Part shown: positions 16,116 to 16,220 of the stretch, one piece after another
How the letters are laid out: every line of letters begins with the position of its first letter
How positions within the stretch are numbered: the stretch's first letter is position 1
DNA from: Thermoplasmata archaeon
Lineage (GTDB): Archaea > Thermoplasmatota > Thermoplasmata > RBG-16-68-12
DNA length: 64,000 nt
Direction: 5' to 3'
NCBI GenBank assembly: GCA_035636595.1
Contig: DASPYU010000023.1
Location: 85,846 to 149,845, forward strand
Notes under the pieces: generated by a model
What the model was told of the DNA's origin: nothing
Seen by the model: only the letters and a program-made list of their open reading frames with translations
Database searches by the model: none
Position numbers and translations under genes: made by a program

Positions 16116-16220
16116 TGGGCCCGGCCGGAGTTTCCGATCTCACGGACAGCCGAGAGACCTTTTGAACCGACGACCTTCTGGTTATGAGCCAGACGCTCCA
16201 CCAGACTAAGCTACGGGCCC
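16116..16220 (-). tRNA. tRNA with CAU anticodon (probably tRNA-Ile2) with a 31-nt intron at position 59/60 (16130-16160)
   Basis: Acceptor GGGCCCG/CGGGCCC+A, anticodon arm TCTGG-CTCATAA-CCAGA, T-stem GTCGG/CCGGC; removing the insert restores T-loop TTCAAAT; GGGCCC acceptor resembles archaeal Ile tRNAs rather than initiator or elongator Met. Confidence 0.9.

What the first reader, a model, noticed from the sequence alone, without database searches (positions are those of the whole stretch)
16116..16220. CAU tRNA (probable Ile2) with a non-canonical T-loop intron and a relaxed BHB motif
Seen: the 31-nt insert AGGTCTCTCGGCTGTCCGTGAGATCGGAAAC (16160-16130) forms a hairpin (GGTCTC/GAGATC, CGG/CCG). 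With the exons it makes a bulge-helix-bulge: AA^A and AC^T bulges around TTCA/GGAA, with one A-G mismatch. Cutting after the second nucleotide of each bulge regenerates TTCAAAT exactly (position 59/60). Knowledge: most euryarchaeal introns lie at 37/38; non-canonical positions are mainly known from Thermoproteales and ARMAN-type archaea with broad-specificity splicing endonucleases. Inference: this lineage may have a relaxed-specificity EndA, and standard annotation may miss or miscall this tRNA.
Basis: partly seen in the sequence, partly recalled or inferred. Interest (0 to 1): 0.65.

Follow-up and report, generated by a model that had tools for sequence, protein, structure and literature searches.

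The report
T-loop intron in isoleucine tRNA gene
This is a real tRNA gene, most likely the isoleucine tRNA that reads the rare AUA codon, interrupted in its T-loop by a short protein-spliced intron; the intron type is known, but it sits here in a soil archaeal order (Ca. Angelarchaeales, Thermoplasmata) whose splicing enzyme is the type reviews say handles only standard-position introns.

Summary
Window 16220..16116 (minus strand) is a 105-nt tRNA(CAU) gene. Removing 16160..16130 (31 nt) gives a clean 74-nt cloverleaf with T-loop UUCAAAU, so the intron lies at 59/60.

- **Motif:** the splice motif is as described: T stem, UUCA/GGAA central helix with an A57•G mismatch, bulges AA|A and AC|U, and a 6-bp intron stem.
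- **Real intron:** all 28 recovered orthologs in the genus carry it, with compensatory changes in the stem. Four other families of the order have unrelated inserts at the same site, and three groups have intronless genes with the predicted junction.
- **Ile2 identity:** this is well supported. The gene is 88% identical to tRNA-Ile(GAU), initiator and elongator Met genes exist separately, TiaS is present, no tRNA-Ile(UAU) exists, and AUA codons are used.
- **Relaxed EndA:** this idea is not supported. EndA is a single alpha'2-type protein without the crenarchaeal specificity loop, and the motif keeps 3-4-3 geometry.
- **Wider pattern:** the same 59/60 intron interrupts the initiator tRNA (two introns) and tRNA-Lys(UUU) (three introns) in this genome.

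No RNA data could be obtained, so splicing is inferred. This is a new member of a known kind and moderately interesting.

The parts
16116..16220 (-). tRNA-Ile2(CAU) gene, 105 nt including the intron. No CCA is encoded.
   Evidence: In-silico splicing gives a 74-nt cloverleaf. The gene is conserved full-length in the genus.
16161..16220 (-). 5' exon, tRNA positions 1-59 (60 nt, one extra D-loop nucleotide). The anticodon CAU is at 16186..16184.
   Evidence: The exon is invariant or nearly invariant across 22 genus orthologs.
16130..16160 (-). 31-nt BHB intron inserted between T-loop positions 59 and 60.
   Evidence: Length is 29-33 nt within the genus. Other families carry unrelated 17-39-nt inserts at the same site.
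16116..16129 (-). 3' exon, positions 60-73: U60, T-stem 3' strand CCGGC, acceptor 3' strand CGGGCCC and discriminator A73.
16163..16166 (-). Central BHB helix, 5' strand: T-loop U54 U55 C56 A57.
   Evidence: Pairs 54-56 are kept in all orthologs. Position 57 covaries with its partner between families (A:U against G:C), but is A opposite G throughout this genus.
16132..16135 (-). Central BHB helix, 3' strand: GGAA, intron nucleotides 26-29. The first G lies opposite A57.
16160..16162 (-). 5' bulge AA|A (A58, A59 and intron nt 1). The predicted cut is after A59.
   Evidence: The geometry rule that cleavage follows the second bulge nucleotide is from established knowledge.
16129..16131 (-). 3' bulge AC|U (intron nt 30-31 and U60). 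The predicted cut is before U60.
16136..16159 (-). Intron hairpin h': GGUCUC/GAGAUC with an inner CGG/CCG and a 4-nt loop.
   Evidence: MFE; five pairs show compensatory double changes.
16241..16252 (-). Conserved CCTTAAGTAACG box 21-32 nt upstream of the mature 5' end; a putative archaeal TATA/BRE promoter element.
   Evidence: The box is strictly conserved in genus orthologs whose flanks are otherwise divergent. The promoter function is inferred.

Best explanation
The locus is the single functional gene for the AUA-decoding tRNA-Ile2(CAU) of an uncultured soil Thermoplasmata archaeon. The organism belongs to the genus that includes the Angelo 'EA_n' MAGs and RBG_19FT_COMBO_69_17, in GTDB order RBG-16-68-12 (Ca. 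Angelarchaeales).

Proposed maturation pathway:
1. The gene is transcribed from a conserved upstream TATA-like box as a 105-nt precursor.
2. T-loop nucleotides U54-A57 pair with the 3' end of a 31-nt insert, and the insert's own hairpin stacks on this helix. Together they form a bulge-helix-bulge motif with the standard 3-4-3 geometry.
3. The organism's ordinary alpha'2 splicing endonuclease cuts after the second nucleotide of each bulge, at 59/60.
4. RtcB joins the exons and regenerates the T-loop UUCAAAU.
5. TiaS then converts C34 to agmatidine, and IleRS charges the tRNA.

Shown here: gene anatomy, exact junction, conservation and covariation, intronless orthologs with the predicted junction, presence of EndA, RtcB and TiaS, and the absence of any alternative Ile2 or Ile(UAU) gene.

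Inferred: transcription, cleavage by this EndA, tolerance of the A57*G mismatch, agmatidinylation and Ile charging.
For: - **Cloverleaf after excision:**
- **Genus conservation:** the insert is present in every recovered genus ortholog (28 of 28) and always at 59/60.
- **Covariation:** h' has 5 pairs with double changes and 21 such cells, with 0 of 500 shuffles as high. The proposed register is 95% paired against at most 58% when slid.
- **Central helix pair 57:partner:** it switches from A:U (f4, f5, f7) to G:C (f2, Jordarchaeia).
- **Intronless orthologs:** g10, f3 and f6 read TTCAAATCCGGCC, exactly the predicted spliced junction.
- **Identity:** 88% identical to tRNA-Ile(GAU) with an identical acceptor stem and A73, against 69% to elongator Met and 63% to the initiator.
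- **Other CAU genes:** separate elongator Met (C8, 37/38 intron) and initiator (C5, A1-U72 type) genes exist.
- **Decoding need:** there is no other CAU gene and no UAU tRNA. AUA is used at 0.65 per 1000 codons.
- **Enzymes:** TiaS lies 10 kb away on the same contig. RtcB is present. EndA is present and alpha'2-type.
- **Promoter:** a conserved upstream box is present.
Against: - No RNA evidence was available.
- The central helix has only 3 standard pairs plus A*G, and neither MFE nor alifold predicts it.
- Published assays report that alpha'2 enzymes handle relaxed motifs poorly (PMC5829648). How well an A*G-containing helix is cut is unknown.
- Ile2 identity rests on paralogy and gene content. 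Known TiaS and IleRS identity elements could not be checked.
- The assembly is 94% complete, so a second CAU gene cannot be strictly excluded.
Confidence: 0.8

Rival explanations
1. The intron needs, and the lineage has evolved, a relaxed or broad-specificity splicing endonuclease, functionally like the crenarchaeal (alpha-beta)2 or ARMAN epsilon2 enzymes.
For: - The genus fixes an A57*G mismatch in the central helix of two different tRNAs: Ile2 in 22 of 22 sequences and the initiator in 9 of 9 distinct sequences.
- The genome also holds multi-intron genes, irregular 37/38 motifs and D-loop inserts. Reviews associate this pattern with broad-specificity enzymes (PMC4090602, PMC5829648).
Against: - There is only one EndA gene. 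It has the alpha'2 N-C-N-C architecture, and its best structural relatives are the M. kandleri fusion and A. fulgidus EndA.
- The CSL insertion of A. pernix EndA aligns to a gap.
- The motif keeps both 3-nt bulges and the 4-position spacing.
- Other families use a fully paired helix at the same site.
Confidence: 0.15
2. The gene is an elongator tRNA-Met rather than tRNA-Ile2.
For: The anticodon CAU alone is ambiguous, and ARAGORN labels the spliced product Met.
Against: - A distinct elongator-Met-type gene with the canonical 37/38 intron typical of Euryarchaeota lies on C8.
- This gene is 88% identical to tRNA-Ile(GAU) and only 69% identical to that Met gene.
- TiaS is present and would otherwise lack a substrate.
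- AUA codons are used and there is no UAU tRNA.
Confidence: 0.05
3. The insert is not spliced. The gene is either a pseudogene disrupted by an insertion or a tRNA with a permanently expanded T-arm.
For: There is no RNA evidence, and thermodynamic folding does not predict the central helix.
Against: - The exons are invariant while the insert evolves freely yet keeps its stem by compensatory change.
- Inserts of 17-39 nt with unrelated sequence all keep the same junction and BHB geometry.
- It is the only Ile2 candidate, and the promoter box is conserved.
- The essential initiator tRNA carries the same kind of insert in 36 of 38 genus genomes.
Confidence: 0.03

Closest known systems
Non-canonical BHB introns at tRNA position 59/60 in Crenarchaeota (Thermoproteales) and ARMAN-type archaea (Marck & Grosjean 2003; Sugahara et al. 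2008; reviewed in PMC4090602)
   Same: Same insertion site (59/60 is in the review's list of known sites). Same protein-spliced BHB logic, and the same co-occurrence with multi-intron tRNA genes.
   Different: Those hosts have (alpha-beta)2 or epsilon2 EndA with a specificity loop. This host has alpha'2 EndA without that loop. The host here is a Thermoplasmata order for which the searched literature reports no tRNA introns at all.
Canonical 37/38 BHB introns of Euryarchaeota (e.g. Haloferax volcanii tRNA-Trp and elongator tRNA-Met), cut by alpha'2 EndA
   Same: Same enzyme class, the same 3-4-3 bulge-helix-bulge geometry, and exon-intron pairing that forms the central helix. This genome also has such introns: Trp of 104 nt, plus eMet, Lys-CUU, Ser-GGA, Gln-CUG and Tyr.
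   Different: The central helix is built from T-loop nucleotides 54-57 instead of anticodon-loop nucleotides 32-35. One of its four pairs is an A*G mismatch in this genus.
T-loop inserts in tRNA-Ile2 of Jordarchaeia (Asgard), found here, and the Asgard intron census preprint 10.64898/2026.10.13.758758
   Same: Same tRNA, same 59/60 site and BHB-compatible structure (L035, L051). The preprint notes that T-arm inserts often have strong canonical motifs yet are missed by annotation.
   Different: The phylum is unrelated and the intron sequences are unrelated. Asgard genomes are already known to be intron-rich.
Archaeal tRNA-Ile2(CAU) modified to agmatidine by TiaS (Haloarcula marismortui, Archaeoglobus fulgidus; from own knowledge and PMC8450103)
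   Same: CAU anticodon, Ile-type body, TiaS in the genome and rare AUA codon use.
   Different: From my own knowledge, not checked here, the characterised Ile2 genes are uninterrupted in the T-loop. Modification and charging are untested here.

Membership tests
Archaeal protein-spliced BHB tRNA intron | Two 3-nt bulges on opposite strands separated by four helix positions. | tested here: met
   The bulges are AA|A and AC|U, spaced by UUCA/GGAA. The geometry is the same in all 48 distinct orthologous sequences.
Archaeal protein-spliced BHB tRNA intron | The central helix consists of four standard base pairs (strict hBHBh'). | tested here: not met
   Three pairs plus A57*G in 22 of 22 genus sequences. 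The feature is met in families f2, f4, f5 and most of f7.
Archaeal protein-spliced BHB tRNA intron | Flanking helices h (exon-exon) and h' (intron), supported by covariation. | tested here: met
   h is the 5-bp T stem, 100% paired. h' has 5 pairs with double compensatory changes.
Archaeal protein-spliced BHB tRNA intron | Excision at the bulges restores a canonical tRNA. | tested here: met
   The product is a 74-nt cloverleaf with T-loop UUCAAAU. It is identical to the junction of intronless orthologs.
Archaeal protein-spliced BHB tRNA intron | Cleavage by EndA and ligation by RtcB, shown in vivo or in vitro. | not testable with these tools
   EndA and RtcB genes are present.
tRNA-Ile2 (agmatidine-dependent AUA decoder) | A CAU anticodon on a body distinct from the initiator and elongator tRNA-Met of the same genome. 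| tested here: met
   There are three CAU genes: C5 (initiator type), C8 (elongator Met with a 37/38 intron) and this one.
tRNA-Ile2 (agmatidine-dependent AUA decoder) | An Ile-type body shared with tRNA-Ile(GAU): acceptor stem and discriminator A73. | tested here: met
   88% identity, identical GGGCCCG/CGGGCCC acceptor stem and A73.
tRNA-Ile2 (agmatidine-dependent AUA decoder) | TiaS is encoded, AUA codons are used, and no tRNA-Ile(UAU) exists. | tested here: met
tRNA-Ile2 (agmatidine-dependent AUA decoder) | agm2C34 modification and charging with isoleucine. | not testable with these tools
   These need mass spectrometry or an aminoacylation assay. Published TiaS identity elements could not be retrieved.
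alpha'2 (homodimeric, narrow-specificity) splicing endonuclease | One polypeptide with two tandem EndA units (N-C-N-C), and no separate structural subunit gene. | tested here: met
   PF02778 and PF01974 each match twice in one 350-aa ORF. No other PF01974 match exists in the genome.
alpha'2 (homodimeric, narrow-specificity) splicing endonuclease | Narrow substrate specificity (strict BHB only). | not testable with these tools
   This needs an enzyme assay.
Broad-specificity EndA ((alpha-beta)2 with CSL, or epsilon2 with ASL) | Heteromeric or three-unit architecture. | tested here: not met
Broad-specificity EndA ((alpha-beta)2 with CSL, or epsilon2 with ASL) | An inserted specificity loop with a conserved Lys near the active site. 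| tested here: not met
   In the alignment to A. pernix alpha (3p1z_B), the A. pernix insertion (...QPLDVEKPRGADFEGP...) faces gaps in this protein. The same region aligns without gaps to M. jannaschii alpha4 EndA. The ARMAN-2 ASL was not examined residue by residue.

The most novel reading that the evidence does not exclude
A whole order of Thermoplasmata (Ca. Angelarchaeales, GTDB RBG-16-68-12) keeps an ordinary loop-less alpha'2 splicing endonuclease. Yet it has repeatedly gained and lost introns at T-loop position 59/60 of essential single-copy tRNAs (initiator, Ile2, Lys-UUU).

The likely reason is that the near-universal T-loop sequence UUCRAAU can serve as one strand of a BHB for any insert ending in YGAA-NN. 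One genus has additionally fixed an A*G-disrupted central helix in two different tRNAs.

If so, the accepted coupling between EndA architecture and intron diversity is not strict. In that case 59/60 would be a second 'canonical-like' site, open to narrow-type enzymes.
Probability: 0.35. Interest if true: 0.65.

Novelty: new member of a known kind. Interest (0 to 1): 0.47.

Why it matters
- **Annotation:** ARAGORN and the general Rfam tRNA model, the two tools run here, miss or only partly match this gene. Such pipelines would therefore report these soil archaea as lacking an AUA decoder. The same applies to the initiator and Lys(UUU) tRNAs, which biases completeness and codon-capacity estimates for an abundant soil lineage.
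- **Biology:** reviews state that Euryarchaeota with alpha4/alpha'2 EndA carry only single introns at the canonical position (PMC4090602, PMC5829648). This order contradicts that statement. It offers a natural test of how far a narrow-type enzyme tolerates a non-canonical position and an imperfect central helix.
- **Evolution:** the mosaic family distribution of Ile2 and initiator T-loop introns gives a tractable case for studying gain and loss of archaeal tRNA introns outside Crenarchaeota and Asgard.

Tried and rejected
- **Thermodynamic support for the central helix:** MFE and RNAalifold leave a 7x7 internal loop. A constrained evaluation shows the BHB conformer is only 2.9 kcal/mol above the MFE, similar to an ortholog with four pairs. 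This neither supports nor refutes the motif.
- **Two-intron SPLITS-like scan:** it did not recover the initiator or Lys(UUU) genes, because their 37/38 or D-loop motifs are irregular. They were reconstructed by hand and confirmed with ARAGORN.
- **Loose census of T-loop inserts:** a BHB-independent screen using only T-stem and acceptor complementarity gave 795 mostly spurious hits and was abandoned. Three T-loop introns is therefore a lower bound for this genome.
- **Brute-force deletion scan of the Pro(GGG) D-region insert:** it cannot fix the boundaries, because ARAGORN accepts many.
- **TiaS identity elements:** the key paper is not in the library.
- **Bacterial-labelled pattern hits (L034, L045, L049):** I considered them possible horizontal cases and rejected them as a terminator hairpin and assembly duplications.
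- **Taxonomy look-up of the RBG MAG name:** it failed. The order name comes from PMC9038741 together with record titles.
- **Haloarchaeal origin:** I first suspected this from the GC content and the 104-nt tRNA-Trp intron. Record titles reject it.

Full report
**1. Observation**

On the minus strand, window 16220..16116 reads GGGCCCGTAGCTTAGTCTGGTGGAGCGTCTGGCTCATAACCAGAAGGTCGTCGGTTCAAA[AGGTCTCTCGGCTGTCCGTGAGATCGGAAAC]TCCGGCCGGGCCCA.

ARAGORN finds only tRNA-Asn and tRNA-Arg in the window and misses this gene, even in intron mode. The Rfam tRNA model gives a partial 29.3-bit match (model positions 7-64) that mis-threads the T arm into the insert.

Deleting the bracketed 31 nt (16160..16130) gives a 74-nt sequence that ARAGORN folds as a perfect cloverleaf. 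Its anticodon is CAU and its T-loop is TTCAAAT. The deletion cannot be shifted by one base without changing the T-loop, so the junction is 59/60.

- T stem GUCGG/CCGGC.
- Central helix U54-A, U55-A, C56-G and A57 opposite G.
- Bulges AA|A and AC|U.
- Intron stem GGUCUC/GAGAUC.

Cleavage after the second bulge nucleotide is the established EndA rule. I checked it against the geometry of the canonical 37/38 case, and it gives exactly this junction.

**2. Is it more than chance, and is it an intron?**

My own SPLITS-like scan of the whole 2.197-Mb, 65% GC genome produced 325,987 loose BHB candidates. Splicing each in silico and running ARAGORN recovered this locus (C23:101975-102005, junction after nucleotide 60 with the anticodon at 35). 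It also recovered the genome's canonical introns, and the other hits were artefacts at the ends of intact tRNAs.

Comparative evidence is decisive:
- The pre-tRNA is conserved full-length in the genus.
- Across the 79 species genomes of the order, every recovered genus ortholog (28 of 28) has the insert.
- Families f2, f4, f5 and f7 have inserts of 17-39 nt with unrelated sequence at exactly the same site.
- The sister genus g10 and families f3 and f6 have intronless genes reading TTCAAATCCGGCC, the predicted spliced junction.

On an alignment of 22 distinct genus sequences, the exons are invariant or nearly so while the insert varies. The proposed structure is 95% paired, against at most 58% for slid registers. 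Five pairs of the intron stem show compensatory double changes (21 cells; 0 of 500 shuffles as high).

Between families, the critical central-helix pair covaries: A57:U in f4, f5 and f7, against G57:C in f2.

A strictly conserved CCTTAAGTAACG box lies 21-32 nt upstream of the mature 5' end, in otherwise divergent flanks. This is the place expected for an archaeal TATA element.

**3. Which tRNA is it?**

The genome has three CAU genes:
- An initiator type on C5, starting AGCGGGG.
- An elongator-Met type on C8, with a 38-nt intron at 37/38.
- This gene.

The spliced product is 88% identical to tRNA-Ile(GAU), with the same acceptor stem and A73. It is only 69% identical to the elongator Met and 63% to the initiator.

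Further support:
- TiaS is encoded 10 kb away on the same contig.
- No tRNA with a UAU anticodon exists.
- AUA is used at 0.65 per 1000 codons in 827 long ORFs.

Ile2 is therefore the best reading. Modification and charging are untested.

**4. The enzyme**

The only match to the EndA catalytic domain is one 350-aa ORF carrying two N-terminal and two catalytic-type domains, the alpha'2 architecture. Its best solved relatives are the fused M. kandleri enzyme (5x89) and A. fulgidus alpha'2 EndA (2gjw, 1r0v).

In the alignment to the A. pernix catalytic subunit, the crenarchaeal insertion containing the specificity loop faces gaps in this protein. The same region aligns without gaps to the narrow-type M. 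jannaschii enzyme. RtcB is present.

The literature assigns broad specificity only to (alpha-beta)2 and epsilon2 enzymes that carry such loops. It also says alpha4/alpha'2 Euryarchaeota have only canonical-position introns (PMC5829648; PMC4090602).

Both bulges, the 4-position spacing and both flanking helices are intact. Free-energy models do not predict the central helix. However, the BHB conformer costs only +2.9 kcal/mol, against +2.3 for a sister-family ortholog with four pairs.

**5. Lineage and wider pattern**

A pattern scan of one genome per species (185,579 species) for this gene with a 12-42-nt T-loop insert returned 55 loci:
- About 50 are MAGs titled Thermoplasmata, Methanomassiliicoccales or 'Methanobacteriota archaeon EA_n', plus RBG_19FT_COMBO_69_17.
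- Two are Jordarchaeia with genuine BHB-compatible inserts.
- Three are bacterial-labelled artefacts.

The EA_n Angelo-soil MAGs were classified in GTDB order RBG-16-68-12 and named Ca. Angelarchaeales (PMC9038741). That paper does not mention tRNA. Searches for tRNA introns in Thermoplasmata or Methanomassiliicoccales found nothing.

Within this genome, the same 59/60 intron also interrupts two other genes:
- **Initiator tRNA:** it has two introns, and the spliced product is a 75-nt tRNA(CAU). The 137-nt gene is conserved full-length in 36 of 38 genus genomes, again with TTCA opposite GGAA or GGGA.
- **tRNA-Lys(UUU):** it has three introns (D-loop, 37/38 and 59/60). The 165-nt gene gives a 74-nt cloverleaf.

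tRNA-Pro(GGG) has a D-region insert.

Across the order, the initiator's T-loop intron is present in f3, f5 and f7 and absent in f2 and f6. That pattern differs from the Ile2 pattern, so gain and loss are mosaic.

Earlier notes of this scan describe the same phenomenon in other Thermoplasmata genomes. I treat them as leads that agree with what I found independently.

**6. Verdict**

- The Ile2 and non-canonical-intron readings are supported.
- 'Relaxed BHB' is only mildly true: one conserved A*G in an otherwise canonical motif.
- The relaxed-EndA inference is not supported.
- Splicing itself remains inferred, because no RNA data could be accessed.

This is a new member of a known kind: a BHB intron at the known 59/60 site. 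Its interest comes from the host lineage and enzyme type, and from being part of an order-wide habit that contradicts review-level generalisations.

Noticed in passing
G000 C5:118325-118461 (minus); locus L089: The initiator tRNA(CAU) gene carries two introns: 29 nt at 37/38 with an irregular BHB, and 33 nt at 59/60 with TTCA/GGAA (A57*G). The spliced product is a 75-nt cloverleaf. The 137-nt gene is conserved full-length in 36 of 38 genus genomes.
   Followed up: yes
G000 C20, minus strand, about 32782-32946 (T-loop intron at 32795-32827): tRNA-Lys(UUU) is split by three introns: 27 nt in the D-loop at about 20/21, where helix h is not contiguous; 31 nt at 37/38; and 33 nt at 59/60 with a perfect TTCG/CGAA helix. 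The 165-nt gene gives a 74-nt cloverleaf. ARAGORN misses the unspliced gene.
   Followed up: yes
G000 C3:2688-2800 (minus): tRNA-Pro(GGG) has an insert of about 36-38 nt in the D-loop/D-arm. The exact boundaries and BHB were not resolved.
   Followed up: partly
Order-wide (79 genomes): T-loop 59/60 introns have a mosaic distribution. Ile2 has one in f1-g1, f2, f4, f5 and f7, but not in f1-g10, f3 or f6. The initiator has one in f1-g1, f3, f5 and f7, but not in f2 or f6. Insert sequences are unrelated between families, which suggests repeated gain and loss at one site.
   Followed up: partly
Genus g1 orthologs (alignment A1; loci L089-L100): In both A57-type T-loop introns (Ile2 and initiator), the whole genus has G opposite A57, whereas most other families have U. 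This is a genus-level fixed mismatch that remains unexplained.
   Followed up: partly
L035:3111-3201 and L051:513-610 (Jordarchaeia MAGs): Asgard tRNA-Ile2(CAU) genes have 17-nt and 24-nt BHB-compatible inserts at the same 59/60 site. These are the only cases outside the Thermoplasmata order in the species-wide scan.
   Followed up: partly
L045 (509-kb contig of an Acidobacteriota MAG) and L049 (Dehalococcoidia MAG): These bacterial tRNA genes contain an internal tandem duplication of the anticodon-arm-to-T-arm segment. They look like assembly artefacts and mimic an insert.
   Followed up: partly
G000 C17:92924-92988 and C3:27640-27671: These are tRNA 3'-half-like fragments (T arm plus acceptor 3' strand) with no recognisable 5' half. 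They may be att-site remnants of integrated elements. Earlier notes on this genome report such elements.
   Followed up: no
G000 whole genome: After all reconstructions, no gene was found for Ala(GGC), Arg(UCU) or Leu(UAA). They may lie in assembly gaps or be hidden by further non-canonical introns.
   Followed up: partly
window 11946-16100 (+): A 1384-aa ORF with four DUF11 repeats plus DUF7619, DUF7507 and DUF7927 matches looks like a large surface protein. It ends 16 nt from the 3' end of the tRNA gene, in convergent orientation. The ORFs at 16301-17062 have no Pfam match.
   Followed up: partly
window 17257-17331 (minus): An uninterrupted tRNA-Asn(GUU) lies about 1 kb upstream on the same strand as the Ile2 gene.
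   Followed up: no
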